Assembly: GCA_001275005.1 (NCBI GenBank)
Contig: JWZX01003284.1
Coordinates: 1-46,570, forward strand
Length of the DNA stretch: 46,570 nucleotides
Origin: Chrysochromulina tobinii
Taxonomy: Eukaryota
Direction of reading: 5' to 3'
The translations under genes were made by a program, and so were the position numbers. The notes below the pieces were generated by a model. It had not been told where the DNA came from. It saw only the letters and a program-made list of their open reading frames with translations, and did not search any database. Positions 5,188 to 46,017 of this stretch are shown piece after piece. The first letter of the stretch is position 1. Each line of letters opens with the position of its first letter.

Positions 5188-7021
5188 TGCACAAGCTCAG
5201 CGAGTCCACACCGCTCATCTCGAAAGGGCGGTACGCGTTTGAGCGACTCGGCATCGATTCGCGAGAGGTGTGGAGTATCATCATCATCGTGCTGCTTTTC
5301 ATCGGCAAGGGCGTCCAGCCGTTTGTCACGGACATCGTGCACGTGACGCAGGCGGCGCTGATCGAGGACAAGACGCTCGACATCACATTTACGGCGCTAG
5401 GCGGCCTCGTGGGCGTGCAGGACTTCACGTCCGGGGTCGCCAAGCTGAGCGTGCCCATCGTGCTGCGCAACTTCGGGCCGAGGATTGTGTATCTCACAGT
5501 GCTCTTCGTGGGCGCGTGCAATACGCTGGCGATCGCGAGCATCGAGGGCGACGTGAGTATCACCGTAATCTTCTCGGGCACTGTGCTGCAGTCGTTCGTG
5601 CACTCGTGGTTGTACCCGGCGACGACGATGACCATCTGCGGCTGGATGGATGGGTCAGTGCTGGGGCGCTCGATCGGTATCGTGGCTGTGGCGACCAAGA
5701 TCACGCCCATCTTCATGGCGCTCATCTACGGCCACCTTCTCGACGTGGGCACCTGGCGGACGTGCTACTACTTCGCCTCCATCCTCTTTGCGAGTATCTT
5801 CGTCGTCTTCTTCGTCTTCATGCGCTCGTCGGCAACCTCCGTCGGCTTCCGCATGCCCGCGCAGCCCACCTCGGGCAAGAAAGGCAACAAGAGGGGCGGC
5901 GAGGATGGGCCCGTGACGGCGCCGAATCGGCCGCCGCCCCTGGGCAATGAGCCGAGCAGCCTCCGGGCTCTATACATCATCAGTTGCATGCGGCGAACGT
6001 GGGCGCTCTTGCTGGGCTTCACCTGCCTCGTCCTTCTGAAGGGGAGCGCCAAGTTTGCGTCGCTGTACGCCAAGCAGAAGCTCGGAGTGACAGCGAGCCA
6101 GGGCACGACGCTCTTCACCACGTACGCTGTCGCAAGCGTCGTCTCGGGCCTGTGCGGCGGCTTCGTGTACGACGCTGTGCCCGAAGGCAAGGTAGGCATC
6201 GGGGTGTTGATGACCTCGCTCAACCTACTCAACCTATCCGGCTTCATCTACGCCCTGGTGCTTGAGCAGATGGACTTCGTGACGATGCCGCTGCTGCAGG
6301 TGTACATGTTCATCGTGGGATTCGCCTCGGTCCTGCCAGTGAGCTTGCCTTTCCAGATCTACGCGATGGGCATGGGCGGCGTCGAGCACTGCGGCATGAT
6401 CGTCGCGGCATTCGAGTGCTTCGCTCTCATTGTCGAGTCACTATTCGACGTGGTCATCGGCTGCTTGCTCGACCAAAAGAACTTTAGCGTGTGGCTCTCC
6501 CTCAACATCGTCTTTGCCACGCTCGGCACCGCCTTCATGGCCCTCTTCTACATTCTTGACTATCGGAAGTCGCCCAAGGCCAACGTGCTCACCTCCGTGC
6601 CCAGGTGAGTGCCACTGATTGCCTCTGATGGCCTCTGATGGCCTCTGATGGCCACTGATGGCCACTGATGGCCTCTGATGGCCACTGATGGCCTCTGATG
6701 TTCGCTGATGGCCTCTGAAGGCCTCTCGCAATCGCCACTGATGACCACTGATGACCATCGACCGCATGCTCGTTGCCTCCGACCAGCCTCAACTCGATCA
6801 CGCGCACCTACTCGAAGCTTCGCCTTTGGGCAGAAACGCTCACGCCCTCGTCCTCGTGCGCCTCTCTCGCCTCCATCGGCTTTGGGAACCCGTCGGAGCC
6901 TTCGTCACCATCCACGCGAGATGGCAGCACACGGCGCAGCCCGATTTCTCCGTCAGCGAGCTGCAAGGGCATGGTGCCAACATTGGCGCCCGGATCGCCC
7001 CCCAAAACTGCAGAGTCTTGA
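5188..7021 (+). CDS. Major facilitator superfamily transporter; exons ~5188-6604 and 6787-7021
   Basis: Two bundles of about 6 hydrophobic helices separated by a hydrophilic loop. MFS-like segments 'LRNFGPRIV' and 'GWMDGSVLGRSIG'. Intron 6605-6786 (GTGAGT...GACCAG) joins in frame to LNSITRTYSKLRLW. The start is uncertain because the ORF is open to 4947. Confidence 0.8.
6612..6757 (+). repeat. Intronic decamer array (CTGATGGCCT/CTGATGGCCA variants)
   Basis: Directly visible tandem repeats inside the MFS intron. Confidence 0.9.
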
Positions 7022-8074: not shown

Positions 8075-8358
8075 TGTGAATGGGGGCACCCCCCGCCGAG
8101 CGTCCGGCGCCCGCGCCCGGGCCGACTCCCCTGTGGGGAAAACGGGGAGGAGTGGTAAAGATCCGTTCATATGAATACACACAACACGTGAGCAGCACAG
8201 CCTTTCACAACACTCCAACACGTACAACGCAACGTTCCCAGGACAAAGAAACATCAACTGCACACGCATGGAAAGTCCTACCATAGTATGGAAAACAAAT
8301 TTCCAAAAACTTCTATGTTGCCTCTTGCGACCTGTGCGCCGACGCCCTCGAGTGAGGC

Positions 8359-11300
8359 ATGCCATACATTGACCTGCCCGGCAGTGCCATGAAGCGTGGC
8401 TTTAGATTGAGCCGCGCCGCAGCGAACCGGCCGTACCGCGAGTGGACGGACGAGGGGCCGCAGCAACCGTCCATGGACGCGGGCTACTCTCCGGTGGACG
8501 ACAAGCGTGCCAAGCGTGAGGCGGCAATCGTCGTGCAGCGGTGGTACCGCCGGCAGCTGCTCAAGTTCGCCACCTTCGGGCCGGTCATATTCACGCGGCG
8601 CGACGGCAAGCTCGCCGATTTTGGCTCGCTCTCGTTCCTCGGCGGCACGCGGATCGCCTACTACATTCGCATCTCGGACACTACGTCATCGGCTATGCTC
8701 TCGCACTTCTTGGAGAAGTATTGGCGGCTGCCGCGACCGGACGTGCTCATCTCGGTCACGGGCTCTGCCGCATCGCTCCAGCTGACCTCGCAGCTGCAGC
8801 GGGTCTTCGACCGCGGCCTCGCGTCGGCGGCCGCGATGACGAACGCGTGGATCTTCACCGGAGGCACGGACAGCGGCGTGATGAAGCTCGTAGGCGAGGC
8901 GATGCATAAGTACGGGCTGGTGGACGTGCCGGTCGTGGGCGTCGCGCCGTGGGGCGCGATTGCGGGGCGCAAGGAGCTGAGCGACAAGAAGGGTCAAACC
9001 ATCGAGGTGATGGCATGGCAATACGAGTGCGCCTCTGCGTGCGCCTCTGAGTGCGCCTCCGAGTGCGTCCAATTGCCTGCCTCATCAGGTGATGTACGGC
9101 AAGACCGGGATGGACACTGTCGGCCGCCTCAACCCCTACCACACGCATCAGATCCTCGTGGACGCGCCGGACGGCGGGAGCGAGGCCACCGCCTGGGGCT
9201 CGGAGATCGGGCTGAGATCGCGCCTCGAGCGCACGTACGCGATCACAGTGATAGATGGCCATTGATGACCTCTGATTGCCTCCCTCATCAGGCTCGGAGA
9301 TCGGGCTGAGATCGCGCCTCGAGCGCACGTACGCGGTCGCAGTGATAGATGGCCATTGATGACCTCTGATTGCCTCCCTCATCAGGTATGCGATCTCGAA
9401 GGGCGTGCCCGTAGTGCAGCTCGTCATCCAGGGCGGACTGGGCACGCTCGACACGTGCATCGCTTCCGCTGAGCTCGGATCGCCGTTACTCATCCTCGCC
9501 GACTCGGGCGGCGCGGCCACGGCCATCGCGCAGTTCTGCACGGGGGGAGAATCGGGGGGAGGTGTGTGAGTGCATGCGGAGTGCCTCGCGGACTACATCT
9601 CTGAGTGCATTCTGATGGCATCTCTGAGTGCATGCTGAGTGCCTCGCGGACTGCATCTCTGAGTGCATGCTGATGGCATCTCTGAGTGCATGCTGATTAC
9701 ATCCCTCATCGCGGATTGCATCTCTGAGTGCATTCTGATGGCTGATGGCGCATCCGCTCTGAGTGCATGCTGATTACATATCTGAGTGCATGCTGATTGC
9801 ATCTCTGAGTGCATGCTGATAGTGCATCCGCTCTGGCGGTGGGGGATTCTGATTGCCACGGATTGCCACGGATTGCCACGGATTGCAGCACGCTCTGACG
9901 GGTTGGGGATTCACGTGGAATCCTCGACGCGCTCGAGAGTGCCGTGTGATTGCATCTGTGAGTGCCGTGTGATTGCATCTTTGATTGCATGCTGACTGCC
10001 TCTGTGAGTGCATGCTGCTGAGTGCAGGAGGGGACATCGACGCGGTTGAGAGCGCCGACTTCATCGCGCAGGAGCCCAAGCTGCGCCAGCTCAAGTCGCT
10101 CAACGACGAGCGCGGGGGCACGTTGCTCAGCTTCTTCAAGCTGCAGGATGAGGACTCTCAGCAGAACATGTCGAGCGCCATCTTGGGCGCGCTCTTCCGG
10201 AACCTGATGTTCCACCAGCCGGGCCAGGCGGTGGGCAGCTCCATCACGCCGGCCATGCAGCGCCTGGCCAAGCGCCGTTCTGAAGTGTACGACGGCGCGG
10301 CGGTGGTGAAGGCGGCGACAGATGAGATCTTCAAGCGTTACCTCGATCAGATGCAGGTGTGTGATTGCCCTCGATTGGTTGCTGTGATGGCCTCACTCAT
10401 CACAGAGGCACGGGATTCCCGCTGATGGCCTCACTCATACAGAGGCACGCGGGATTGCCGCTGATGGCCTCACTCATCACAGAGGCACGCGGGACTGCCG
10501 CTGATGGCAACGATGTGCGACTGATCGGCATGATGTACGGCCATGGGCATGTACATACGATTATACATACGATTATACATACGACTGATCGGCATGATGG
10601 CTTCCCTCGGCAGCGCGCGCTGCTGCTCACTGTCAAGTGGAATCAGCCAAGCTTCGCGAGGCGCATTCTCGTCGACCTGCCACCCTCGCACGATCACACG
10701 CGCCCGATGCGTAAGATGCTTCAGCATGCGATAGGACAGCGCCGGCTGGAGATCGTGCGCCTGCTGCTCGAGCGCCCAGGTGCGATCTCCCTTGATGACC
10801 ACTGATTGCATGCCAATGGCACCCGATCGTGCGCCTGCTGCTGCTCGGACGTTCAGGCACCGCAATCTCGTCTGTCAGCCTGTGCCAGCTGTACTTGCTT
10901 GAGGACCCGTACAATTACTTACGCCGAGATCTCGCGCTCCAGGCGAGATTACAGCGAGCTCTGAGCGAGATCGCGCGAGATGGGAACACACAGGCCCAAT
11001 GGGGTTCCGCCTACCTTCTCTTCCGCAACACGGTTGGACCCACGCTTCGAGCGGTCACGCCGCTGCTCGGCGGCATCATCGAGAATCAGCGTCTTTGCAC
11101 GCACGCCGATGTCTTCTTCTGGTGAGTGCCCTCTGATGGCGCCTCTAATGGCCTGTGATGGCCTGTGATGATGGCCTCTGATTGCATTTCTGGTGAGTGC
11201 CCTCTGATGGCGCCTCTGACGGCGCCTTTGATGGCCTCTGATGATGGCCTCTGATTGCATCTGATGGCCTCCCTCATCAGGTGCGTCTTCATGGGCGACG

Positions 11301-14300
11301 TGCGCCTCGCGCGCGAGCTCTGGGCCTACGTGGAGCATCCCCTGCACTGCGCACTGATCGCAAGCCACGTGCTCAACGTGATCGCGTCGCGCGCGTCGGC
11401 TGCCAAGATTGAGGCGCGCGCGGCGGCGGCCGAGATAGAAGCTTGGGCGATGGGCGTGATGGACGAAATCCAGGAGCAGGAGGTCGGCCACTGGCTGCTC
11501 TCGCAGCACGTGCCTGCGTGGGGGCTCGGCTCGATCGTCGATCTCGCCCTCCAGGTGCGATCTCCCTTGATGAGCACTGATTGCATGCTGAGTGCACTCC
11601 CTCGGTTCGATCGTCGATCTCGCACCCTCCGATGGAGCTCGTGAGGAGATCGTCGATCTCGCACCCTCCGATGGAGCTCGTGAGGAGATCGTCGATCTCG
11701 CACCCTCCGATGGAGTTCGTGAGCTTCCTCGGATGGCCTGATGGCCTCGGATTGCCTATGATGGCCTCTGATTGCCTCTGATTGCCTCTGATTGCCACTC
11801 ATGAGCTCTTCGATCTCGATCTCGCCCCCCAGATGGAGCTCAAGACCTTCCTCGCGCATCGTCACTGCCAGTCGCTGATGGATCTACGATGGCGCGGCGG
11901 CTTCCCGGTGCTTACCTCTAGGCCTCTGATGGCCTCTGATGGCCTCTGATAGCCTCTGATGGCCTCTGATGGCCTCTGATGGCCTCTGATGGCCTCTGAT
12001 GGCCTCTGATGGCCTCTGATGGCCTCTGATGGCCTCTGATGGCCTCTGATGCGCGGCGGCTTCCGTGCCTTCAGGGCTCCGGCTGCATCGTGCCTGCGTC
12101 CCACTCGATGCCCCTCATTTCTGCGTGGATGCTCTTCCCCTTGTTGAACCCGTACTTGCGGCGCGACGCTGAGGGCAAGTCCGGCGAACGCTCATCCAAT
12201 GCCCCAACCCATTCCCCCGGGGGATCTTCGACTTTTGGCAACGATGGGTACGATGAGGATGATGACTTCTGATGACCTGTGATGACTTCTGATGACCTCT
12301 GATGACCTCTGATGACCTCTGATGGCCTCCCTCATCAGGTACGATGAGGATGATGGGCAAGTCAGCCCGATTGGGGAGGATCCCGAGCTCTTGCTCGGGG
12401 CGCTCGCGGAGGCGCTCAACCTCAAGGAGTACGTCTGATGGCTTCTGATGAGCTTTGATTCCCTCTGAGTGCCTCTCATCGCCTCTGATGGCCTCTGATG
12501 GCCTCCAGTGGCCTCCAATGGCCTCTGAGTGCCTCTGATGGCCTCTGAGTGCCCTGAGTGCCTCTGATGGCGCCCCTGTCTCAGGTTCGAGAAGAAGAAG
12601 GCACGGGCCGCTCTCGATGTCGAGGCGGAGAAGAAGCGCCTTGAGGTGGAGAAGGAGAGTGCTCTGCAGAAGGCGCTGGCGGAGGCTGCGCGTGCAAAGG
12701 CAAAGGAGGAGTGGGCGGCGCAGCGTGCTGCTCAAGAGGCACGCTCGGGCGCGGGCGTGGTGGACCCACGTCACCAGAGGTCACCTGATCAGAGGTCACC
12801 TGAGGATCTCCGCGATCTCCCTCCGAAGAAGGCATTCAAGAGCGTCGCGGTCAACGTGATGGAGATGGATGACAAGCGCGGGGTGGGTGTAGATGGATCA
12901 CCAACTAAGCGGCTCGCGGTCACGCTCCGCGCCCTCTCCCTTCGTCGGGAAGGCTCGCAGTCCGCTCTGCTCGGGCGCTCATTCAAGCACCAGCAGACCT
13001 TCTCGCACTCGGTCAAAAGTCTCGTCAACCGCGGGTTTCGTGACGCACCGGAGGTGGCCAAGAGACCCAAGAGTGTGAATGTGAATGGCTTCTACTCAGT
13101 GCTCTTGATTGCGTCCCTCATCAGGTGGCCAAGAGACCCAAGAGTGGTTTCTACTCAGTGCCCCTGGTCAAGTACTGCATGCGCGCCGTGTCGCACGTGC
13201 TCTTCTTGTGCCTCTATTTCGAGGTCTGCACCCATCTGCTCACCTCGCTGATGACCTCTGATGACATCGGATTGCTTCTGATGACCTCTTGATTTCCTAC
13301 CTCATCAGGTCCTCACCCATCTGCTCACGGTGGATCAGCTCTGGGCCATGTCACCGAGGCTGCCGCCGCTCACGTGGGCCGAGCTGATGCTGATCGTCTG
13401 GTCCCTTACACTGGGGTACGAGCATCGGCAGCGCGACTACCTGATGAAAACGTACGGGCTGATTGCGGACTCATGGCTCAAGTCACTTGTGAACACGGCG
13501 CACATGGTGATGAATGCCGCCATCGGGCTGCGCCTCGTCACGCGGATCCCGGGCTTCGAGTTCGCCTCGGCGTATACGGCCTATCAGACGCTAGTCTCGT
13601 TCGACGCCGTCCTCATGTGTTGCGAGACGTTCACTTTCATGTGGACTTCACACAATTTCGGCATCCTGGCGATCACGCTCGTGCAGATGATGATCGACCT
13701 CTCGCTATTCCTCGTCTTCTTCTCGGTCATTATCGTCGGCTTCTGCTTCGCGCTCGTCGGCCTCTCAGAGACGGTGATTGCAGCTGATTGCGTCTGAGTG
13801 GCCCTTTGATTGCGTCTGCTTCGCACTCGTGGCCTCTCAGAGACGGTGATTGCAGATGATTGCGTCTGAATGGCCCTTTGAGTGCGCCTGATGGCCTCCC
13901 TCATCAGGCTGGAGAACACGATCTACTCTCCGCAGCCACTTTCGAAGACATCAAATCCGCGGGCCACACCCTCTCCGGCGCCGCCGTCGCCGCCGCATCC
14001 GTCGCTTCGGATTCTATTCGGGCCGGCATCACGTCGGCGTCGGCGTCGGGTGGTCGACGCCTATCAGTCGACGCGACGGACTCTGTGGACCGGCGTCTGC
14101 TGTCGGCCATCGACATGCTCGGCGGCGGTGGTGGTGGCGGCGGAGGCGTGCAGACCGAGCCCCTGGCGCTCTATTGGCAACCTTTCTGGTACATGTACGC
14201 CGAGTTTGACATCGATGTGCTTCGTCAAGTGCCCTTCGCTCTCCCGCTAATGTGGGTGTACGTGCTGCTCGCCAACGTTGTGCTCGTCAACATGCTGATC

Positions 14301-15262
14301 GCGATGTTTGCGGACACGTACACGCGCATCAAGCGGAACGCGGAGGTCGAGTATCAGTATCAGCACTACCTTCACATCTTCGAGTACCAGCACGTCGTGC
14401 ACCATCTGCCGCCGCCCTTCAATGCTCCCATGCTGCTCTGGGATGCCTGCCGCGCATGCTTCCGCTCGACCGAGGCCCTGGAGCGGCTCGTCCGAATGGA
14501 CTTTGGCGCCTTTCCAGAGCGTGAGTACCTGGAGCTGTATGGGGCGGCGCCGCTGCTTCATGGGGCAGGTTCCTCGGGCAGCTCCACTCTGAGCCGCAAG
14601 TGCGTGCTTGGCTCTTGCTCTGATGCGCTCTGATGCGCTCTGATGCGCTCTGATGGGCTCTGATGGGCTCTTATGGGCTCTGATGGGCTCTGATTGGTTG
14701 AGAGCCTGTGCGCGCCACTGATGACCTGCGATGACCTCTGATGACCTCCGATGCCCTGTGATGGCCCACTGATGCCCGCTGATGACCTCTGATTGCCTCC
14801 CTCCTCAGGTATGTTCAGCGATTCCTCAAGGCTCGCGCGGAGGTGACGAACCACTGATGACCTCTGATTGCCTCCCTCAGGTATGTTCAGCGATTCCTCA
14901 AGGCTCGCGCGGAGGTGACGAACCAGACGTCGCAGGCGGCGCTCGTGCGCCGTATTGAGCAGATGGTCGACGATCTTGAGGAGAGCCTGCAGCACGAGTT
15001 CGAGCACATCAGCAACAGCCTCGTGGCGCAGCGCGACGAGACGAACCGCAAGTTTAAGTACATTGTGGCCGCCGTCGACCGCGCGGCACGCGGCGAGGTC
15101 GCCAAGTCGAGCCAGGTGGGCGTGCAGGCGATGAAGGAGGCAGTCCGCGCCCCCACCACCTCGCCGCCTGCGACGTTGCGCACGGCACCGCAGGGCGGCG
15201 GCGGCGGTGGCGGCGGGCCCGGCGGTGCGGCCCAGCCCAAGAGGATACAAAGGCAGGTTTAG
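8359..15262 (+). CDS. TRPM-like cation channel with N-terminal SLOG/MHR region; 15 exons (introns 9007-9088, 9235-9385, 9562-10027, 10357-10613, 10780-10856, 11122-11280, 11555-11832, 11908-12074, 12248-12338, 12429-12584, 13054-13124, 13224-13308, 13774-13907, 14600-14880)
   Basis: The spliced frame is continuous. It shows TRPM hallmarks LISVTGSA, AWIFTGGTDSGVMKLVGEA, VGVAPWG, LNPYHTHQILVD, GSEIGLRSRLE, VPVVQLVIQGG, ILADSGGAA, LLLTVKWNQ, KTFLAHRHCQSLMDLRWRG and FYSVPLVKY. S6 reads ANVVLVNMLIAMFADTY, followed by LPPPFN and a C-terminal coiled coil. All introns are GT-AG with consistent phases. Confidence 0.85.
9197..9384 (+). repeat. 94-bp tandem duplication spanning an exon end and a whole intron unit
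   Basis: ggctcggagatcggg...ctccctcatca at 9197-9290 and 9291-9384, nearly identical. Confidence 0.9.
9566..10025 (+). repeat. Intronic degenerate array of CTGAGTGCAT/CTGATTGCAT units plus (GATTGCCACG)n
   Basis: Visible repeats filling TRPM intron 3. Confidence 0.85.
11609..11723 (+). repeat. Three 39-bp intronic repeats resembling the spliced exon7-exon8 junction
   Basis: Unit gatcgtcgatctcgcaccctccgatggagctcgtgagga at 11609, 11648 and 11687, compared with the spliced junction gatcgtcgatctcgccctccag|atggagctc. Confidence 0.9.
11921..12050 (+). repeat. (GGCCTCTGAT)x13 intronic array
   Basis: Near-perfect decamer tandem repeat with one variant unit. Confidence 0.95.
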
Positions 15263-15643
15263 AGAATGAGTGGCCCGGAACGGAAAGAGGAATCCGAACC
15301 GTAACGGGCTGTCTTCAACTTTCAAGAGACGCAAGAAGACTAGCGTACAGTGATGCGAAACAAGCCGCACGATGCTTATGGTATACACTGACGTACGGGA
15401 GAGGTTCGTGTACGTGTAGAATTACCGTCGCCTCACATATCCAACATCTTTTGCTCGGACGCTCCTCGCTCGCGGCGCGGCGCGCCCACATTCAGCGACA
15501 GGAATCACCGCGCACCCTCCAAGAGCACAGCTCAGCGAGCGCGTGTGCTCTAATCGCAGCACGCGCCAGCCTCTGCCGGACTCCGGACCCCGCTGGCTCC
15601 GCCTGCCGAGGACCCTCGGGAAATCTTACGCCTGTGGGGAAAT

Positions 15644-20751: not shown

Positions 20752-21795
20752 ATGGAGTCTCGGGACGCTCTCGGCAATCGCTTGAAGCGCGACCCCTTTA
20801 CGGGCATCATGTGGGCCCCGGGCATGCCATCATCGGGGCTCGCGTATGCACATGAGGCGAGGCTGTGGAGAAAGGAACGTGAAAGGGCTATGGCATTCGC
20901 CAGCGAGTTGGCGGCTGCAAGGAAGCAACGTGAAAGAGCAGCAGCGAAGCCCGTCTTCGACATCGATGCGCCGTTTGGCATGAACACCGATCCTCGCACG
21001 GGGCAATTCGTTCATCCAGAGCATCGTCGGCCGGGGCCTAAAAGCATAAACTACTTCCAATATCATTTGAGCCAACCACGCAGCGCTGAGGAACGCAGCC
21101 GGCTCTTTCGCATGCGTGGCAGTAACAATTGGTATGGGGTCGTGCGCCCAGTCGTGCCTCGGAGCTGTAGCGGCAGCATGCTCGGGTACGTGCCTTCCGC
21201 AGACCAGAACCTCCACCGCGGCTTCCACTCCGGGCGCACCGCTGGGCGAGCGTTTGATGACGACACTGGAGGCCACGTGCGTTCGTACGAGGAGCCGCCG
21301 CCGCGCCAGGGGCGCGACACCGGATTGCGGGAGCGCGAGCTGCGCCGCGCTGCATCGGTGCCGACGTATGTGCCGCCGCCGGCCACGGCATGGGGGTCGG
21401 CAGAGGCGTGTCCGGCGACGCCACGGGGCCCGATCATGTCGATCGACAGGACTGGAATGGTGTATCCAGTCTACACTGGCAGGAAAGAAGAGTTGGCGCA
21501 GAAGGTCGGCAGTGCTCACTGGTCGACGGTGGCTAGTCCAGCTACGCCACGAGCATCAACAGTGTCTCGCCCAGCCACGCCACGGGGTTCGACGATGGCT
21601 AGCCCAGCCACGCCACGGGGTTCGACGATGGCTAGCCCAGCCACGCCACGGGGTTCGACGATGGCTAGCCCAGCCACGCCACGGGGTTCGACGATGGCTA
21701 GCCCAGCCACGCCACGGGGTTCGACGGTGGGGTGGGCACCGCCCCCGCCCAGGCTGCCGCCGCCCCCGCAAACATGCGAAACATATTTCGTGTGA
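20752..21795 (+). CDS. Hypothetical protein with C-terminal 11-aa (MASPATPRGST) repeats
   Basis: Long ORF with an ATG at 20752 after an AT-richer spacer, containing in-frame 33-bp repeats. No known domain recognised. Confidence 0.6.
   Translation: MESRDALGNRLKRDPFTGIMWAPGMPSSGLAYAHEARLWRKERERAMAFASELAAARKQRERAAAKPVFDIDAPFGMNTDPRTGQFVHPEHRRPGPKSINYFQYHLSQPRSAEERSRLFRMRGSNNWYGVVRPVVPRSCSGSMLGYVPSADQNLHRGFHSGRTAGRAFDDDTGGHVRSYEEPPPRQGRDTGLRERELRRAASVPTYVPPPATAWGSAEACPATPRGPIMSIDRTGMVYPVYTGRKEELAQKVGSAHWSTVASPATPRASTVSRPATPRGSTMASPATPRGSTMASPATPRGSTMASPATPRGSTMASPATPRGSTVGWAPPPPRLPPPPQTCETYFV
21523..21730 (+). repeat. Coding 33-bp tandem repeat, about 6 copies
   Basis: Unit gctagcccagccacgccacggggttcgacgatg; the first copies are degenerate. 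Confidence 0.9.
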
Positions 21796-22157
21796 AATTG
21801 CCGCGAGGCGTCCGGTTCGCATCGCTAGACACTCGCTACTGTGGTTAGCATGAATCAGAACACACAACACAGAAGGACTCTAATTCTGTGGTACCGGTAC
21901 GTTCTGTACGGTAAAAAAAAGTACCTCCTCCGCTTGCACGCTTGGAATAATTATTTTTATTTCCCACTAAGCAAGGACGTTTAAGTAGATTTTCTAGGAG
22001 AAAGGCTCTCTTCGAAATCTGGAATCTGCCGTTTCGGCGCCTCTTCCCAAGTTCGGCCCCACCGAGACTTGTTTTTCGCTTTCGTGGCGATTTTTTCTCG
22101 TGGCGACGTCTTGTTTTGCGCGACGGTGCCGTGTCGGGCGACAGATTCTTGCACGAA

Positions 22158-23500
22158 ATGATGGATCCGCAGCCTAAAGGTCGTGCAGGCAGCCGTTCCA
22201 TGGAAGATTACAATGAAATGGGCTACACATCAGCGCCTATGGAAAAACATTTGAAGGACTTCATCGAGTTATACGCAATAGGAGGAGACAAACAACCTGG
22301 GTGCAAGGCCGAATGCATCGAGATCTGCCAAATCAATGCTCTGCAGGACCTCGATGACCTGCGCAATCTCTCGCGCCGCTGTTGGCTGGGCGAGTACTTC
22401 CCAGCAAAAGTGGCCCTGCGTTTCGAAAACGCACTTGAGTCGCCGGAAATGCTCAATTTTTTCAAGAAACTCGATGAAGGCAATAAGAAGCCATGGGCGA
22501 ATACGTTTTACTTCACGTATTCGATCGAATCCATGGAAAGTACGTGTGCGACGTACGGCATCCTTTCGGCTCTCTTGCTTACCATGAACGTCGGTAGCTT
22601 CGGCGCGATAGAGATCGAGGAGTGGGGCGCATTTGAGTCAGGCGTTGCCATGGAGCGCTGCAACGGCACATCTCTCTTCCGCTGGTCGTCTGGACGACCT
22701 GGCGAAACCGTCGAAGAGTGCATAACGGCTCTTTCTGCCGAGTCCGAGAAATGGTTCATCATGGCCAACTTTGGGGCGTCCCTCTTCCTTATTTTGACGC
22801 TCTTGTTCTCCAGTTGGCTCTACATCGCATTTGGCATCCCTGGTGCGGACCGCACTAGGCCAGAAGAGGTACAAGCTGTTGTCGCACGCTTTAGCGGAGA
22901 GTTTGCCACCCTCAACTTCCTCTTTCTCTTTTCTGTCGCGCTATCGGGCACGGGTATCCTCCAGCTCACTCAGATCAAGAGTAAGCGTGCAGCTCGTCCT
23001 TGCAGGTAAGCCTGATGGCATCTGACATGCGCACACGTTGCTTTTTTGCTCTTTTGCTCGCAGTCCGATCCTGGAGCTTAGTTGTCTTCTTGTCGACGAT
23101 AGCCATTATCACATTCGTTGGCATATGTGTGCTTGCTGCGTGGCTCATATGGGAAATGGATAAAGCCAAGGGATTCCTTCAAAAGATTCGCACTATGCAC
23201 GCCAGGAGCGACAAGGAGCGCCAGGATCTCCTGGCACTCCTGGCGAAACCAACTGAAGAAGACAACAAAGATGAGAACGCTGTTCGCCTCAAAAAAGTGA
23301 TCGCGGAGTATATGAATATGAATATGAAGGACAAGAAGGGCATTCTGATCAAACTAAAAGAAGTAGTCGATGCATGGCATTCAAAAATGAAGGACGAGAA
23401 GGGCAAGAAAAGTGGCACCGCAGAAGGCCAAGACAAGAAGGACAAGAATAGGACAGGAAAAGGACAAGAAAAGGACAAGAAAAGTGGCCTATTCTTCTGA
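22158..23500 (+). CDS. Hypothetical membrane protein (about 4 TM) with Lys-rich C-terminus; exons ~22158-22980 and 23064-23500
   Basis: Intron 22981-23063 (GTAAGC...TTTGCTCGCAG) joins ORF 22116 to ORF 23000 in frame. Hydrophobic segments: TYGILSALLLTMNVG, FGASLFLILTLLFSSWLYIAF, LNFLFLFSVALSG and SLVVFLSTIAIITFVGICVLAAWLIW. Start codon uncertain. Confidence 0.65.
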
Positions 23501-24153
23501 TGACGTAGACTCAAACCCCGAGAGCGCATCATAATCGCGTGCGGCTAGTTGCGCAAAGTAAAGGCTCTTCCGCACCAACTTGACAACGAGGAGGTGAATG
23601 CTGCCGAGGCAGCAGCGGTGATGAGATCGCGTGGCGCGCGCGCGCAGGCAGTAGCATGGGGCGCAGATGGGGGCATGCGGAGCAATCGAGTTCGGAAGAG
23701 TGTGCAAGTGGATCGAGGCCTGGGAGCGGCTGAAAGCTGTGATGAATACATAGACCTGGTAAGTATCCGTCCCGACCGACTGTGTGTATCGTGTGTCGTC
23801 CGTCTGGTGCATTTTGAGCATCTTGCATTGCGCGAGGTGCCTTCTAGCATGCGCGCCATTGCTCGCTAGACGACACGCGGCTCCTTGCGTTCGACCCGGT
23901 CCGGGGCCGCGCGGGCTCAACTTCGATGCGACGTTCGTACTTCGTTTGCGGCCCGACCGAACTCTCGAAGTCGAACACAGTGCGCGGAAAGAGATACAGA
24001 AGAGAAATTTATAGCAAAATTCTCGTAGGGCTCTGCGCAGTATTCGACATAGATCCACAGCAGTGGAATCGACTGTCGCTGACACGTCTACCTAATACTG
24101 TCGAGTCCCGGACTCGACACCTCTCGACGACGAAGATCGTGGGTGCTCAACAC

Positions 24154-27219: not shown

Positions 27220-28336
27220 TTAGGAGCTCTTCTTGGCTCTCGCGCGCTGGTTCATCGACCTATTCATCGACGAGCCACCCGTCGCCCGGTTCTGACTGCG
27301 ACACGGCCTCGCTTCGGCCGGCGCGAATCCGTACAGGTTGATCCACGCCTCTTGGCACATGGTGCCGTAGTAGAACAGGAGCTCGCTCCCCTGGGCAATC
27401 GGCGCCGTCGCGGTCGCGACGAAACCCTGCGAGGCCACGTTGAACTCCGCACGGATGCCCACCTGCCCAAAATTGAGCATATCGAGCACGTCAAGTCAAG
27501 TCAAGTCAAGTCAAGTCAAGTCAAGTCAAGTCAAGTCGGATGCCCACCTGCCCAAAATTGAGCATGTCGAGCACGGGCGCAAGGAAGGCGCGGTGCTCGC
27601 CGTCGACGGGGAGCACCCAGTCGCGCGCCGAGATGATCGCAAAGAGATGGAGGAAGCGTTCCCACCGGTAGATCCTCTCGAGGTGCTCGGGTGGGCAAAC
27701 GGGCGCCGCACATCCCAGGCCCTCGGAGAGCGGCGCTGGGAAGTGCTCGATGGCGCCGAGGATGAGCGCGTCGTACTGGGCACGTGCGTAGTTGCGCGAG
27801 CGGCTCGCGAGCTCGCGCGCCATGGGCGTCAGCTTCCGGTACCGCTCTGAGCTCTCGGGCCACAGCATGGGCACCCCGCTCACGTCGTGCGACCGGATGA
27901 GCTGCAGGTATGGCATTTGAGGCGATCGCTCGCGCGCGAGCTCGCGCATGGCGTAGAGGACGATGCGCGTGCGGTCGTCCACGGATTCCCGCCGCCGCCG
28001 TGCCGAGCCATTCGGCCTTTCAACAAGGCTGAAGGCTGGGCTCAAGGTCCACTGCATGACCGGCAGCAGCGACGAGTTGCCGACCGTGTACCCGGAGAGC
28101 AGCTCGCGCACCGGCACATTGCAAAGACGTTCGCCCTTGTTGATCGGCGCGATCGCCTTCGCGCCGCGGATCGTCGCGCCAAGCGACTCGTAGTAGAAGA
28201 AGCCGACGCCAACCTTTGGGCATACTCTCGCCAGCGCGCTGCTCGCAACGTATTGCTCCCACAGCTCGGTGAGTTGCGTCAGGTTGCGGCCCTCCCAGGT
28301 GGTGCGCGCATACACGTCCGGCTGGCTCGACGGCAT
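27220..28336 (-). CDS. SET-domain protein of the Rubisco-LSMT/SETD3-like type; exons 28336-27548 and 27462-27220
   Basis: RGAKAIAPINKGERLCNVP, PYLQLI, VPMLWP, LAPVLDMLNF, FVATATAPIAQGSELLFYYG and LYGF. An 85-nt GT-AG intron at 27463-27547 joins the two ORFs in frame. Confidence 0.75.
27452..27575. repeat. 39-bp direct repeats (27452-27490, 27537-27575) flanking (TCAAG)x9
   Basis: cggatgcccacctgcccaaaattgagcatRtcgagcacg occurs twice with one mismatch, separated by a pentamer microsatellite. Confidence 0.95.
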
Positions 28337-34801: not shown

Positions 34802-36370
34802 ATGGTCGGCCACAAGTTCGCAGACAAAGTCTCCCTTCGCGAGTATCTTCTTGCGCACGGCGTGGATTCCATCGCATGGGGCACGCGCGGTGCCAAGCAC
34901 GTTGAGGACCTGCTCGAGGAGCTGCAGCAAGGGGAAGCATCGCTGCAGCTCGTCGATGGCAAGATCTATCGCAACCTGGGCGTCGTGAAGCTGATCGTAC
35001 GCAGCCCGGAGGTCCCAGGGCAGCATCTCGTTTGCTACGAGCAGCAGATGGCCGACGGGCGCAAGCGCCAACGCAACGTGCTTCTGGCGGAGAAGAAGAA
35101 GCGCAACGAGACGGCAGATCAGGCTGCGATGCGAGCCATCAGGGAGGAGCTGGGCAGCGTCAAGGGGATGAAGCTCGACAGTGTGCTGCTGCGCGTGGGC
35201 ACCTACAAGAATTGGGAGGAGGCCGATGTGTCTCCATCATATCCGACGCTCTCCACCCGGTACGAGCTGCATCAGTATGAGGTGCGCGTGCGCGGCCTGC
35301 CCAAGCATCCGTTCATGACGGTTGAGGATGCTGGCGAGGGCAAGAAGAAGTTCAACTTTTGGAAGTGGGTCGTCGACTCCGATGACGATCTTCGGTACAA
35401 GGGCTTTGCCACTGGGCAGCGGCTCTCAGACGTCCACGAGGAACACCCAATAAACCCCAGCAAGTGGCAGCCGTCGGGAGTCGCTCAAAACATATTCGCA
35501 GACAAGGTGGAGGCGCGTAAGTACCTTCTCTCGCACGGTGTGGATACAGCCGCGTGGGGCGTATGTGATGCCAAGCGCATCGAAGACCTGCTCGAGGAGC
35601 TGCAGCAAGGGGAAGCATCACTGCAGCTCGTCGATGGCAAGATCTATCGCAACCTGGGCGTCGTGAAGCTGATCGTACGCAGCCCGGAGGTCCCAGGGCA
35701 GCATCTCGTTTGCTACGAGCAGCAGATGGCCGACGGGCGCAAGCGCCAACGCAACGTGCTTCTGGCGGAGAAGAAGAAGCGCAACGAGACGGCAGATCAG
35801 GCTGCGATGCGAGCCATCAGGGAGGAGCTGGGCAGCGTCAAGGGGATGAAGCTCGACAGTGTGCTGCTGCGCGTGGGCACCTACAAGAATTGGGAGGAGG
35901 CCGATGTGTCTCCATCATATCCGACGCTCTCCACCCGGTACGAGCTGCATCAGTATGAGGTGCGCGTGCGCGGCCTGCCCAAGCATCCGTTCATGACGGT
36001 TGAGGATGCGGGCGAGGGCAAGAAGAAGTTCAACTTTTGGAAGTGGGTCGTCGACTCCGATGTCGATCTTCGGTACAAGGGCCCTTCGACGGGTGTCCTC
36101 GGCTTCAATGAGTTGTTGGCTCAGCGTCCGCCGTCGACCATAGGAGACAGCCGCAAGGGCTTCGACGTCGCGTTCATCAACTCGCCAATAGGCTCCGCCA
36201 CTTACTGGCCCGCGGCGACTGCATTCTTGTCGCCGCGCAGCGTTCATTGCTGGCAGCCCAGCGTAAACGAGGGGGGGGGGATCCTCACGCCGACGTGGCA
36301 GCCGCCGCAGGCGCAGTCACTCGCCAACCCCGTTTCCAGGCGCCACCCACATCGCACTACGCCATTTTGA
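34802..36370 (+). CDS. Protein with two tandem NUDIX-like domains; the C-terminus may extend to 36764 via a frameshift
   Basis: Repeated domain containing WGxxxAKxxEDLLEELQQGEASL, EKKKRNETADQAAMRAIREELG (Nudix-box-like) and SPSYPTLSTRYELH. Confidence 0.7.
   Translation: MVGHKFADKVSLREYLLAHGVDSIAWGTRGAKHVEDLLEELQQGEASLQLVDGKIYRNLGVVKLIVRSPEVPGQHLVCYEQQMADGRKRQRNVLLAEKKKRNETADQAAMRAIREELGSVKGMKLDSVLLRVGTYKNWEEADVSPSYPTLSTRYELHQYEVRVRGLPKHPFMTVEDAGEGKKKFNFWKWVVDSDDDLRYKGFATGQRLSDVHEEHPINPSKWQPSGVAQNIFADKVEARKYLLSHGVDTAAWGVCDAKRIEDLLEELQQGEASLQLVDGKIYRNLGVVKLIVRSPEVPGQHLVCYEQQMADGRKRQRNVLLAEKKKRNETADQAAMRAIREELGSVKGMKLDSVLLRVGTYKNWEEADVSPSYPTLSTRYELHQYEVRVRGLPKHPFMTVEDAGEGKKKFNFWKWVVDSDVDLRYKGPSTGVLGFNELLAQRPPSTIGDSRKGFDVAFINSPIGSATYWPAATAFLSPRSVHCWQPSVNEGGGILTPTWQPPQAQSLANPVSRRHPHRTTPF
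34905..36081 (+). repeat. Near-identical coding duplication of about 500 bp, period 678 bp
   Basis: ~34905-35403 versus ~35583-36081 show only a few substitutions. Shadow ORFs 35032 and 35710 translate identically. Confidence 0.95.
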
Positions 36371-41026: not shown

Positions 41027-43001
41027 TTACCCCCCATCACCTCTTATCTTCGGCAGCCGCATCACCTTGGCCAGCTGTCCCCGAAGCTTCTTGAGCACAA
41101 ACGGGTGCTCGCCGGGCGTAGTGAGCTCCTCACGTAGCCTTCCCGCGCGCGACGCATTCGCATCGACACGGAAGAGGTCAACGTGGCGCTCGCACTTCGC
41201 CTTGGCCTCGAGCGCGTCGGTTCCATGCTGTCTGCGGTCTGCGGTCCATTGGATGAGGGTCCAGCCCTGCGGGCGAATGGTATGGCTGACTCAGTGGCCC
41301 ATGCAGCACTCGGTGACATTCACACCATGGCATTCACACCATGACATCACACCAGTGGCCCATGCAGCACTCGGTGGCAGTCCGCAGCAATAGAGGCACG
41401 CTGGGGCACACAGTGACAATCAGTGGCCATCAAGTGGCCATGAGTGGCCATCAAGCGGCCATCAAGTGGCCATCAAGCGGCCATCAAGTGGTCATCAAGA
41501 GGCCATGAAGAGGTCATCAAGCGGCCATGAAGAGGTCATCAAGTGGTCATCAGTGGCCATCAAGAGGCCATCAAGTGGCCATCAAGTGGCGATCGATGGC
41601 AACCACCTGCGTGCGCACGGCATAGCCCATACAGCGCTCGGGTTCGCTCACAGGCCATTGCGAGAAGGCGAGCGCACTCGCTATCCGTCGCTTGGGCGCT
41701 CGTCGTCGCATCAGAGGCACAAGGGACCGTCCCTCAAGCGGCGGTGGCTCACCTGTTCCACTCGCGCCACCGCCGCTGCCCTCTGCAGCCGCGCCGCTCG
41801 CGCCGCCACCCGTGCCAGGTACGGGAAGGCCGCACAGCTGCAGCACTGTAGGAAAGACATCGATGAGCTCCACAGGAGCTTGGACGCGCTTAGGTGACAC
41901 TCCGGGCGCCGCAACGAGTAGAGGCACGTGCGTGTCTGCCGCGAGCAACGTGTGCTTGCCCCACCCTCCATGATGGCCTAGTTTATATCCGTGGTCGCTC
42001 AGGAGCACAATGAGCGACGTCTCCCTGGCCGCCGTGCCAAGCGCTGCCAGCACGCGCCCAACCTGTGCATCCACAAACGAGACGGCCGCCGCGTACGCGC
42101 GCACGAGGTCGAGTCCCTCCGGACTGTTCGGCTTGAGTCGCCGCCGGATCCGCATCTCGGGCCGATGCGCAAAGTCGAAGAGCTCGCCGTCGCCCGCGCG
42201 CACGTGACTCGCGCTCAACTCGGACAGCCCCGCGGGTGCGCGCGCCTCGGTGCCCGTCGGCGCGTGCCGTGCGGCTGCCTCAGCTGCATCCCAGTAACGC
42301 GCAGGAACGTTGAAGGGCAGATGGGGCCGTATGAAACCGACGGCGAGCAGCCACGGGCGCGGCTGCTCGTGCAGCCGGCGCAGGGCACGTACCGCGAGCG
42401 TGCCCAAGCGCTCGTCAGTGTACGGGCTACTCGGCCGATCGGGGCCAACCTCAAAGGGGGGCACCAACCCGTTCACCGACACCTTGTCGCCGCCGTGGCG
42501 GCGCCGCCTCGTCGTTTTCTGCCTGGCTACGTTGGGCGCCGTCATGTATTGGTTGTAGCGCCAGCCATGCGTCCAGCCGCCGGCGCGAGACCACGCACGG
42601 CCGGTCAGCCCACGGTACGTATGGTTGTCTGCCCACTCGTCCTGGCCGCTCCACGATGGCGAGTCGTCGAGGAACTGGTGGAAGATCTTTCCGTACGAGA
42701 CGGTCAAGTACCCGTGCTCCCGAAACACCTGCGGCAGCGTCTTCAAGCGTTTGTGGCGGGCGCGCACATGCGTCTGCAGATCGTACACGCCGTGTGAGTC
42801 GGGGCGCAAGCCGGTGAGGAGCGAGGCCCTGCTCGGAGCGCAGTTAGCGACGGAGGCGTGCGCCTGCAGAAACGTGACGCTAGACTTCGAGAGGGCATCG
42901 ATGGCGGGTGTGCGGGCCCATTTCCGACCATACGATCCGAGATCGGTCCTCAAGTCGTCGATGATCAGCATTAGGAGGTTTAGCCTCGTGCGGCCGTCCA
43001 T
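41027..43001 (-). CDS. Formylglycine-dependent sulfatase, iduronate-2-sulfatase-like; exons 43001-41607 and 41266-41027
   Basis: NLLMLIIDDLR, TPAIDAL, CAPSRASLLTG (CxPxR), GKIFH, GFIRPHLPF, SDHGYKLG and VELIDVFPT. The spliced MGYAVRTQ|GWTLIQW junction crosses intron 41267-41606. Confidence 0.88.
41420..41600 (-). repeat. Intronic 11-mer array (CTTGATGGCCA on the sense strand)
   Basis: Reads tggccatcaag repeats on +, i.e. CTTGATGGCCA in the sulfatase pre-mRNA. Confidence 0.85.
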
Positions 43002-43200: not shown

Positions 43201-44619
43201 ATGCCGAAAGGAAATCCGAAGAAGCCGCCCGGCTCCAAAAAATCTGCTCTCCCACCCAAGCTGCTGTCGAGCTGGGGCTTCGTCATCTTCGGCGCGTGCG
43301 GTGTGGCGCTCGCAATTGTCATGCCGCACCTCCTCAAGTACCTATTCCCGCACCCAGAACCGAAGCCACGCGTGGACAACGGCGCTACCCAGCAGCAGCA
43401 GCAGCAGAGCTCGCCAAAGGCCGTCTGCGCAGAGGACGGCCCGCCGGAGCATGAGATGTGCCTCGCCTGGCACAAGGCCGGATACTGCCGCGCACAGCGC
43501 CGCGGCGTCAGCTTTCCATCAGCTCAGCAGGTGCAGGAGCAGTGCGCTCGCACCTGCGGGCTCTGCCCTAACACTAAAGGGCGCAATCCACCCAAGCCGC
43601 GTGAGGATCGTTGCTCGCGCGACAACACCACGGCGGCCGTGCCCGAGGGCGAGCTCAACCGGCTCTTCGAGCGCATCAAAGCGGAGTACCCGGAGTACGA
43701 GCCGACGTTTCTCTCGACGTCGCCGTATGTGTTGCACCTGAAGAACTTCATCAGCGCGGAGGAGGCGGCCGCGTTCCAGAGCACGTGCAAGGAGTCCTTC
43801 GAGCGCTCGCTCGCGGGCGACCAGCTCAACCCGGTGCGCACCTCGTTCCAGTGTTGGTGCAACTTCGGAGACTGCTTCGCGAACCCTCTGGTGCACCGCG
43901 TGACACGTCGGATCAACAACCTGACGAACACGCCGTACGACAACGGCGAGGACCTTCAGGTCGTGCGGTACGAGCCGGGCCAATTCTACCGCGTCCACCA
44001 CGACCAGAACACGGCCGTGTGGGCACCCCAGGGTCCTCGTGTCCTCACCTTCTTCATGTACCTCAACGACGTCCCCTCGGGCGGCGAGACCGCGTTTCCA
44101 CAGATACCCTCGCCGTCGGGCAAGGGCCACCTTATCGTCCAGCCGCGGCTCGGCCATGCCATCCTGTGGCCTTCGGTCTTCGACGAGCGGCCCATGGAGG
44201 CTGATGAGCGCACCAATCACGAGGCGATGCCGGTGCACGAGGGCGTCAAATTTGGCGCCAATATGTGGATCCACCAGGTGCGTGCGACTGATTGCGACTG
44301 ATTGCGACTGATTGCCACGGATTGCCACGGATTGCCACTGATGGCCACTGATGGCCACTGATTGCCACTGATGACCTCCCGATATGTGGATCCACATCAG
44401 TTCTCATTCAAGACGCCGTCGGAGCGAGGGTGCGAACTCACGTATGTCAACACGGTCGGCCGCCAGCCGCAGACGCGCGAGCATGAGGCGCTCGTCGCTG
44501 GGCGAGTTCCCACGTATGAGGAGACGGTGCGAGCCGCGAGCCAGAGCAAGAGCCTCGACCCGGACACGCTCGCCCGCCTCGATGCCAAATTCAAACGAGG
44601 AGGTCGCGACCAGGTGTGA
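43201..44619 (+). CDS. Prolyl 4-hydroxylase (2OG-Fe(II) oxygenase) with N-terminal TM anchor and ShKT-like domain; exons 43201-44277 and 44401-44619
   Basis: TM segment WGFVIFGACGVALAIVM, ShKT-like CLAWHKAGYC...QCARTCGLC, LQVVRYEPGQFYRVHHD, TFFMYLNDVPSGGETAFP and HEAMPVHEGVKFGANMWIH. Intron at 44278-44400. Confidence 0.9.
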
Positions 44620-45950: not shown

Positions 45951-46017
45951 TCTCATCGCTGCTCATAGCTGCTCATGGCTGCTCATGGCTGCTCATCGCT
46001 GCTCATCGCTGCTCATG
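45951..46017 (-). repeat. Decamer array (ATGAGCAGCN) at the 3' end of the second TRP gene
   Basis: ctcatcgctg/ctcatggctg repeats on +, about 6 copies. Confidence 0.8.

What the first reader, a model, noticed from the sequence alone, without database searches (positions are those of the whole stretch)
9007..14880. A class of introns that copy their own flanking exons: apparent ongoing intron creation by junction duplication
Seen: 11 of the 14 TRPM introns carry a direct copy of adjacent exon or junction sequence. In five, the intron start matches the downstream exon start: AGGTGATG (9007/9089); GTACGCGATC vs GTATGCGATC (9235/9386); 18-nt GGTACGATGAGGATGATG (12247/12338); 24-nt AGGTGGCCAAGAGACCCAAGAGTG (13052/13123); GTC..CACCCATCTGCTCAC (13224/13309). 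In three, the intron 3' part matches the upstream exon end: GATCGTGCGCCTGCTGCT (10751/10825), GCGCGGCGGCTTCC (~11892/~12051) and the 11832 acceptor. Three more are donor- or acceptor-spanning duplications (11117/11188, ~13744/~13817, 14809/14881). The same pattern occurs in the SET and P4H genes. Known: tandem duplication across an AG|GT proto-splice site and double-strand-break repair with filler DNA are proposed intron-gain routes, whereas introner elements typically leave only short TSDs. Inference: the long, variable junction copies plus repeat filler point to a recurrent repair/slippage-based intron generator in this lineage.
Basis: partly seen in the sequence, partly recalled or inferred. 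Interest (0 to 1): 0.9.

Follow-up and report, generated by a model that had tools for sequence, protein, structure and literature searches.

The report
Alga making new introns by duplication
In an ion-channel gene of a freshwater alga, most introns carry a copy of the gene's own neighbouring coding sequence and two are missing from other strains, so the gene is likely still gaining introns, probably when DNA repair pastes the splice-signal end of an existing intron into a break.

Summary
Confirmed and extended. The window is most likely Chrysochromulina tobinii. The TRPM gene (8359-15263) has 14 introns giving an open 1483-aa frame. Ten are shown as GT..AG RNA joints. Eleven of 14 match their own exon flanks beyond the 99th percentile of 992 non-cognate pairs; the copies recur in other assemblies and in DNA-like runs. 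New: introns 9 (12248-12338) and 11 (13054-13124) are absent from many conspecific genomic alleles. Other alleles carry insertions at two exon sites that are empty here; one shows a 29-nt or longer duplication. Related genes lack these positions, and a paralogue has 8 introns of the same type, 7 at other positions. So intron gain is recurrent and recent. Each event leaves a variable 8-48 nt duplication around a patchwork of shared splice-end cassettes and a 10-nt repeat. The most likely cause is templated break repair (0.55); an RNA/retro route (0.25) is not excluded. This works like Daphnia break-repair introns and is not a classical introner. The scan noted this footprint before on another piece of this genome.

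The parts
8359..15263 (+). TRPM-like channel gene, 15 exons, 1483 aa
   Evidence: open frame; Pfam PF18139, PF25508; 3' part annotated as KOO22356.1
9007..9088 (+). intron 1; 8-nt repeat 9005/9087 (weak donor-side copy)
   Evidence: RNA joint in X4, X9; anchored p=0.009; present in 6 of 6 alleles seen
9235..9385 (+). intron 2; donor-side copy 9/10 nt, plus a secondary 94-nt duplication carrying 38 nt of the upstream exon (9291-9328)
   Evidence: alleles with 1, 3 and 4 units; joint not displayed
9562..10027 (+). intron 3 (donor inferred); 9-nt repeat 9541/9553 next to it, with about 5 extra codons against relatives
   Evidence: frame, alignment; no RNA test
10357..10613 (+). intron 4; repeat filler, no exon copy; internal 18-nt repeat 10518/10582 around filler
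10780..10856 (+). intron 5; acceptor-side copy (18 nt exact, 10751/10825); 5' cassette shared with intron 7
   Evidence: RNA pieces in X4 and DNA-like contigs
11122..11280 (+). intron 6; 73-nt donor-spanning duplication with only 5 exon bases
   Evidence: RNA joint; fails the exon-copy test
11555..11832 (+). intron 7; acceptor-side copies of the upstream exon end; 39-nt acceptor-spanning unit at 11609-11723 (4 more copies in L007)
   Evidence: RNA joint
11908..12074 (+). intron 8; 14-nt copy 11892/12051 around a pure 10-nt repeat array
   Evidence: RNA joint
12248..12338 (+). intron 9; perfect 18-nt duplication 12247/12338; polymorphic, absent from most sampled alleles
   Evidence: RNA joint incl. 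X1; absent in 14 genomic read-through proteins, present form in 4
12429..12584 (+). intron 10; repeat filler, no exon copy
   Evidence: RNA joint
13054..13124 (+). intron 11; 24-nt exact duplication 13052/13123, continuing 15 nt after a 12-nt insert (about 48 nt in other alleles); polymorphic
   Evidence: RNA joint in 4 of 4 runs; absent in 8 genomic read-through proteins, start form in 23
13012..13035 (+). empty site in exon 11: five other alleles run into repeat filler here (likely a separate new intron; its duplication could not be read)
   Evidence: P0074, P0076, P0077, P0078, P0081
13224..13308 (+). intron 12; donor-side copy 18/20 nt plus AG
   Evidence: RNA joint in 4 of 4 runs
13774..13907 (+). 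intron 13; 72-nt donor-spanning duplication 13742-13890
   Evidence: RNA joint
14489..14517 (+). empty site in exon 14: allele P0226 carries a cassette after 14517 followed by a copy of these 29 or more bases (likely a new acceptor-side intron)
   Evidence: 1 allele (8 contigs) against 15 genomic empty-site alleles
14600..14880 (+). intron 14; acceptor-spanning duplication with 45 nt of exon (14809/14881); the one position shared with the paralogue
   Evidence: RNA joint
27463..27547 (-). SET-domain gene intron; 39-nt duplication across both junctions with 5-mer filler
   Evidence: no RNA test
44278..44400 (+). prolyl-4-hydroxylase-like gene intron; 14-nt acceptor-side copy 44261/44382
   Evidence: open frame; no RNA test
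41267..41606 (-). sulfatase-like gene intron (name from my reading of the sequence); 11-nt repeat filler, degenerate acceptor-side copy
   Evidence: no RNA test
6605..6786 (+). MFS-like transporter gene intron (name as read from the sequence); 10-nt repeat filler, no significant exon copy
   Evidence: open frame

Best explanation
These are spliced introns that carry direct copies of their own flanking exon, at least two are missing from other strains, and they are likely created by repair of staggered breaks that duplicates 8-48 bases of exon and copies in a splice-signal cassette from an existing intron. In the donor-side class the duplicate starts with GT and becomes the donor, while the insert brings branch-point-like repeats and a shared acceptor end. 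In the acceptor-side class the duplicate ends in CAG and becomes the acceptor, while the insert brings the donor. Only events that restore the mRNA exactly would survive in coding sequence. The same process recurs at existing junctions, giving the donor- and acceptor-spanning duplicates, and the copies then erode by deletion, point change and repeat expansion. Shown: splicing, the copies, shared cassettes, presence/absence alleles (read from translations). Inferred: gain rather than loss, the break, the template, the enzyme (polymerase-theta-like or microhomology template switch) and the selection filter.
For: Duplication length varies widely (8, 10, 18, 22, 30, 39, about 48 nt), unlike a transposase footprint. 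No two of 32 introns exceed 77% end-to-end identity, yet they share termini: one acceptor end at 8 TRPM introns here and one paralogue intron, one 5' end at introns 5 and 7. Intron 9 is absent in 14 proteins that read on into intron 10, and intron 11 in 8 that read on into intron 12. Records whose longest contig is 102,161 nt lack intron 9 but keep intron 11 with its longer repeat and the 4-unit intron 2, which argues against assembly collapse. A divergent haplotype lacks both introns but keeps its neighbours. Continuous ORFs on contigs far longer than the gene cross these positions (P0003, P0007, P0006, P0015, P0017), and the tree places the window gene among them (99/97). The same duplicate-plus-filler pattern occurs inside an intron (10518/10582) and outside any intron (L008 7984/8023). 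In exons, 13 of 15 tandem repeats I picked have periods divisible by 3. Table 5c shows acceptor + 10-36 other bases + filler in contigs from other loci. Daphnia neointrons are attributed to staggered breaks with 4-12 bp repeats (PMC4202315, passages).
Against: The junction microhomology test is underpowered: a template was found for only 4 of 8 cases, and p=0.03 rests on one intron. Filler arrays and cassettes occur only on the sense strand and only in introns over about 67 kb, which random DNA templating does not predict without strong selection; intergenic DNA is only about 18% of the window. The cassette in allele P0226 resembles paralogue introns 7 and 8, not this gene's introns, so templates are not only local. 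Extra units of intron 2 in P0001, P0036 and P0037 join exon 2 and exon 3 as in the mRNA, which an RNA template would give directly. Alleles were read from translations, not DNA; P0082 shows that assemblies can collapse across the repeat arrays. Three of 14 introns here and 4 of 8 in the paralogue show no significant copy.
Confidence: 0.55

Rival explanations
1. An RNA route: spliced-out intron RNA or pre-mRNA ends are reverse-transcribed into a nick (LINE-type target-primed reverse transcription, or RNA-templated repair). This gives variable duplications, exact 3' ends and 5' truncation.
For: Donor-side inserts end exactly at the acceptor AG and start at variable points in the repeat. All filler is sense-strand and genic. 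Cassettes move between loci (P0226 against L008 introns 7 and 8). Intron-2 alleles hold the spliced exon junction. Variable 7-20 nt duplications and repeat tails are typical of non-LTR elements (recalled). An earlier AI note on this genome favoured a short mobile sequence (unchecked).
Against: No poly(A) tail at any insert. Acceptor-side inserts have a fixed 5' end and no intron 3' end. Exact ends are also what selection for splicing would keep. The spliced-junction units can be explained by recombination with an older allele with a longer duplication. No reverse transcriptase could be looked for (no genome).
Confidence: 0.25
2. A tiny DNA transposon (MITE-like, or HUH/Replitron-like) inserts at G/AG|GT sites with a sloppy duplication, that is, an unusual introner.
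For: The shared acceptor end is the inverted copy of the repeat core, so some inserts have a 6-7 nt terminal inverted match. Replitron-1 of Chlamydomonas inserts after RG with variable duplications, and one Replitron locus is reported in C. tobinii (PMC10288648, passages). Contigs of many other loci share the acceptor end (loose ends).
Against: No end-to-end copies (maximum 77%); several unrelated cassette families and a 5-mer filler give the same footprint; no inverted repeat of 8 nt or more in 4 of 6 regions tested; published introner duplications are fixed at 4 or 8 nt.
Confidence: 0.12
3. The introns are old; slippage or tandem duplication at existing junctions made the copies, and the empty alleles are precise losses through the repeats.
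For: Secondary junction duplications are real and polymorphic (intron 2 with 1-4 units; intron 7 with 4 more units in L007). One position is shared with the paralogue. P0070 looks like deletion between the repeats.
Against: 13 of 14 positions are not shared with the paralogue, and 7 of its 8 are not shared with this gene. Intron-free relatives surround both genes in the tree. The intron-9 repeat is perfect and the empty form spans two haplotypes. Other alleles have insertions where this one has none.
Confidence: 0.05
4. Short-read assembly artefacts made the copies or the empty alleles.
For: P0082 is a collapse across repeat arrays; repeat counts differ between the window and L007; no long reads were seen.
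Against: Copies of 14-45 nt, often with mismatches, recur in L006, L007 and X15/X16 contigs. An 18-nt repeat is shorter than usual assembly words. Empty alleles carry their own substitutions.
Confidence: 0.03

Closest known systems
Daphnia pulex neointrons from staggered double-strand-break repair (Li et al. 2014, PMC4202315; passages)
   Same: [quoted passage not shown]
   Different: Daphnia repeats are 4-12 bp and the filler source is mostly unknown and AT-rich. Here repeats reach 18-48 nt and the filler is a shared library of splice-end cassettes and a 10-nt repeat, sense strand only.
Introners / introner-like elements (Gozashti 2022, bioRxiv 10.1101/2022.06.06.494994; Roy 2020, bioRxiv 10.1101/2020.10.14.339549; passages)
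   Same: [quoted passage not shown]
   Different: Fixed 4- or 8-nt duplications and end-to-end similar copies there; variable long duplications and patchwork low-complexity bodies here. That pipeline filtered out low-complexity families, so this class would likely be missed.
Tandem genomic duplication across AG|GT (listed in PMC3296678, passages)
   Same: The SET intron has the predicted form: downstream-exon copy at its start and upstream-exon copy at its end.
   Different: The other introns copy one side only and contain inserted non-exonic sequence; 4 of 8 donor-side cases have no upstream AG.
Replitron-1 of Chlamydomonas reinhardtii (PMC10288648; passages)
   Same: Orientation-specific insertion after RG with variable-length duplications and fuzzy ends.
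   Different: Those are 0.9-3.6 kb elements with terminal direct repeats and a transposase; they are not reported to make introns in the passages read; inserts here are 30-400 nt.

Membership tests
Introner (TE-derived intron family) | Many introns similar from end to end | tested here: not met
   Best global identity among 32 introns is 0.52-0.77, and the top values come from the shared 10-nt repeat; only 67 kb sampled
Introner (TE-derived intron family) | Family-specific fixed target-site duplication | tested here: not met
   8 to about 48 nt among introns with the same acceptor end
Introner (TE-derived intron family) | Splice site recruited from the duplication, the other carried by the insert | tested here: met
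   Donor-side and acceptor-side classes
Introner (TE-derived intron family) | Terminal inverted repeats (in DNA-transposon families) | tested here: inconclusive
   None of 8 nt or more in 4 of 6 regions; one 14-nt 79% pair in intron 12; a 6-7 nt match follows from the repeat core
Introner (TE-derived intron family) | Autonomous partner element | not testable with these tools
   No genome held
Break-repair neointrons (Daphnia type) | Recent gain, with presence/absence within the species | tested here: met
   Introns 9 and 11 and two empty sites, read from translations
Break-repair neointrons (Daphnia type) | Direct repeat of adjacent exon at the opposite intron end | tested here: met
   longer than the 4-12 bp reported
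Break-repair neointrons (Daphnia type) | Secondary internal repeats in young introns | tested here: met
Break-repair neointrons (Daphnia type) | Dependence on break repair; microhomology at junctions | tested here: inconclusive
   4 of 8 testable, driven by one intron; genetics not testable
Tandem-duplication introns (AG|GT model) | Intron made wholly of duplicated exon spanning AG|GT | tested here: not met
   Every case has inserted filler; only SET copies both sides
Non-LTR retroposed inserts (SINE-like) | Variable duplication, fixed 3' end, 5' truncation | tested here: inconclusive
   Fits the donor-side class, not the acceptor-side class
Non-LTR retroposed inserts (SINE-like) | Poly(A) or repeat tail, Pol III promoter, partner LINE | tested here: inconclusive
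   No poly(A) seen and no Rfam match at gathering score in 8300-15300; LINE not testable

The most novel reading that the evidence does not exclude
Chrysochromulina runs a self-propagating intron factory with no dedicated element: the ends of its own introns, as RNA, are copied into staggered nicks in transcribed genes. Every existing intron is then a ready-made splice cassette for new ones, which explains the sense-only filler, the long variable duplications, the mRNA-junction copies inside intron 2 and several segregating new introns in a single gene.
Probability: 0.25. Interest if true: 0.92.

Novelty: new variant of a known kind. Interest (0 to 1): 0.78.

Why it matters
Where new spliceosomal introns and their splice signals come from is a long-open question; outside transposon-derived introners the source is mostly unknown (PMC4202315). 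Here the source (ends of existing introns), the footprint (a long exon duplication) and the before-and-after alleles are all visible. Four presence/absence sites turn up in the sampled part of one gene of a cultured alga whose genes average one intron (PMC4580454). That makes rate, mechanism and selection on new introns testable from public lake metagenomes and mutation-accumulation lines. It also points to a class that introner screens would discard as low complexity, and it misleads annotation: the paralogue's database protein carries a duplicated peptide at its intron 7.

Tried and rejected
No whole genome was held, so no genome-wide count was possible. Motif scans of viral contigs found 0 loci. 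The prokaryote genome scan gave 5 single hits in bacterial MAG records that I did not pursue. Rfam had no match. I first read L008 as a sister-species orthologue; its protein is the C. tobinii record KOO29445.1 and sits in another clade, so it is a paralogue, and L008, L010 and L011 are one identical sequence. Cluster 2 is mis-clustered with unrelated bacterial proteins and gave nothing on exon 2. Two of the ten look-ups were not in the collection. P0082 was rejected as an assembly collapse, although it is one of the 8 counted as lacking intron 11 (7 without it). P0070 counts among the 23 intron-11 start forms but has lost the acceptor part. The microhomology test was inconclusive. Summed contig depth at the acceptor cassette is high, but the tool warns that it is no copy number, so it was not used. 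Two control introns in L008 had a boundary off by one base, which affects only their anchored scores. The output was cut over window introns 9-11, which lie in poorly alignable regions. 'Fixed' introns (1, 4, 7, 12, 13, 14 present in all alleles listed) may be biased, because clusters were seeded with intron-bearing ORFs and only up to 15 members per cluster were listed. RNA joints from X4 and X9 for introns 9 and 11 could come from intron-free strains; X1, with no differences from the window, carries the weight. Ten literature searches showed no description of this class in Chrysochromulina. Read et al. 2013 and Li et al. 2009 were not held, and the introner papers' supplementary family lists were not seen and may bear on novelty. 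PMC2784329 passages held nothing relevant.
Full report
Setting. No genome was held. The 3' part of the gene clusters with Chrysochromulina tobinii KOO22356.1, which lies on a contig of 46,570 bases, the window's length, and with a C. parva protein. The window is therefore most likely C. tobinii, a freshwater haptophyte with 63.4% GC and about one intron per gene (PMC4580454, passages). RNA holders are mixed-culture and freshwater runs.

Gene model. Fourteen introns between 8359 and 15263 give an open 1483-aa TRPM-like protein. RNA contigs show GT..AG joints for introns 7-14 and introns 1 and 6. Contig pieces imply introns 4 and 5. Intron 2 is only consistent with a contig end, and intron 3 is untested. 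X1 has no differences from the window and joins across introns 8-12 and 14, so the two polymorphic introns are likely spliced in a strain that has them; heterozygosity in that culture is not excluded.

The copies are real and beyond chance. Nine of 14 introns hold 14-45 exact bases of their own exon flanks, against at most 11 in 182 non-cognate pairs. I then scored 32 introns: 14 here, 8 in the paralogue L008, 7 in other window genes and 3 in L008 neighbours. Passing the 99th percentile of 992 non-cognate pairs on at least one of three scores were 11 of 14, 4 of 8 and 3 of 10; none of the 6 introns without the short-repeat filler passed; 0 of 100,000 permutations reached the observed sum. L006 and L007 reproduce the copies, and unspliced contigs from X15 and X16 cross intron 5.

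Anatomy. Donor-side class (introns 1, 2, 9, 11, 12; L008 introns 1, 7, 8): the intron begins with a copy of the next exon starting at GT, then filler, then a shared acceptor end; 4 of 8 have no AG upstream, so the insert supplies the acceptor. Acceptor-side class (introns 5, 7, 8; P4H; L008 intron 2): the intron begins with a cassette, shared by introns 5 and 7, and ends with a copy of the previous exon, in most cases ending in CAG and drifting towards pyrimidines. SET copies both sides around a 5-mer array. Junction-spanning duplicates in introns 2, 6, 7, 13 and 14 are secondary. The filler is mainly a 10-nt repeat whose core resembles a branch point (consensus recalled). It lies only on the sense strand and only in introns over about 67 kb. 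No two introns are more than 77% alike end to end. Contigs from other loci show acceptor, 10-36 other bases, then filler again (table 5c), so the pattern is not confined to this gene. Intronic 10-11 bp repeats in Emiliania are recalled from Read et al. 2013, which was not held.

The positions are young. Relatives called as continuous ORFs on contigs much longer than the gene cross these sites: P0003 (557 aa, 19 kb) introns 1-5, P0007 and P0006 (9 and 13 kb) introns 1-8, P0015 and P0017 (11 and 8.6 kb; members to 17 kb) the whole length. The window gene groups with P0002, P0003, P0005 and P0007 (99/97), and L008 with P0016, P0011, P0010, P0015 and P0017 (16 rows, N-terminal region; 5 near-duplicate or fragment rows left out). 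L008 is the C. tobinii paralogue KOO29445.1. It shares 1 of its 8 positions with the window gene; there it has a perfect 30-nt copy, so that site is a parallel gain or a renewal.

Gain is ongoing. Gene callers that ignore introns read from an exon into the next intron, so their proteins report genomic alleles. Intron 9 is absent in 14 such proteins that end in intron 10 (134 contig records, not independent), from two haplotypes, some identical to the window; its present form is in 4. Intron 11 is absent in 8 that end in intron 12 (one a collapsed assembly), and its start is present in 23, some with the exon copy extended to about 48 nt. Five alleles run into filler near 13030, and one (P0226, 8 contigs) has a cassette after 14517 followed by a copy of 14489-14517; the window is empty at both sites. 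Intron 2 has 1, 2, 3 or 4 units, and the extra units in three alleles join exon 2 to exon 3 as in the mRNA. Records sharing a 102,161-nt longest contig lack intron 9 but keep longer repeats at introns 2 and 11, which argues against collapse.

Mechanism. I favour templated repair of staggered breaks (0.55). Lengths vary, inserts are patchworks from several families, and the same duplicate-plus-filler footprint appears inside an intron and outside any intron. Tandem duplications in exons are common and mostly in frame (13 of 15), as expected if selection filters a general process. The weak points are an underpowered microhomology test, strict sense orientation, templates from other loci and the mRNA-like units, which keep an RNA route open (0.25). 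A sloppy DNA element (0.12), old introns with losses (0.05) and artefact (0.03) are less likely.

Comparison. It works like Daphnia neointrons, whose exon repeats are 4-12 bp and whose filler is mostly unidentified (PMC4202315, passages). It recruits splice sites as introners do but fails their end-to-end similarity and fixed-duplication features (bioRxiv 10.1101/2022.06.06.494994 and 10.1101/2020.10.14.339549, passages; PMC12130899, passages, no mention of Chrysochromulina in the main text). Ten searches showed no published description; supplements were not seen. An earlier AI note reports the same footprint in a polyketide-synthase gene of this genome; I did not check its count, and it is not independent support.

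Verdict. Observation confirmed; recurrent recent intron gain about 0.9; new variant of a known kind; interest 0.78.

Noticed in passing
window 39320-39330, minus strand: An in-frame TAG interrupts an otherwise open frame of the WD-repeat (EML-like, my reading) gene: sequencing error, pseudogene or readthrough.
   Followed up: no
window 46050-46570, minus strand: 3' end of what looks like another TRP-channel gene, followed by a 10-nt repeat array at 45952-46016 just past its stop.
   Followed up: partly
window 9541-9561: A 9-nt duplication beside intron 3 adds about 5 codons relative to relatives; either an imprecise gain or a non-GT donor near 9547.
   Followed up: partly
window 8359-15263 and L008 9932-15250: Both TRPM paralogues are intron hotspots (14 and 8 introns) while neighbouring genes have 0-3; unexplained.
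   Followed up: no
L008 7984-8031: 9-nt direct repeat around the same 5-mer array as the SET intron, outside any intron.
   Followed up: partly
L008 19480-19555: The last codons and stop of a ubiquilin-like gene (my reading) are repeated four times in tandem.
   Followed up: no
window 34850-36080: An internal duplication of several hundred bases within one coding region, near-identical copies.
   Followed up: no
window 21523-21730 and 25579-25680: In-frame exonic tandem repeats of 33 and 42 nt with near-perfect copies.
   Followed up: partly
L008 11113-11273: Likely GC-donor intron; the database protein KOO29445.1 differs from my model here and duplicates a short peptide at intron 7.
   Followed up: partly
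window 13076-13087: The 12-nt insert inside the intron-11 duplicate matches a short repeat also seen between genes (25331, 30417, 40918); allele P0070 keeps it in the exon without the intron.
   Followed up: partly
window 22100-23550: A lower-GC gene region (53% over 22001-24000) unlike its neighbours.
   Followed up: no
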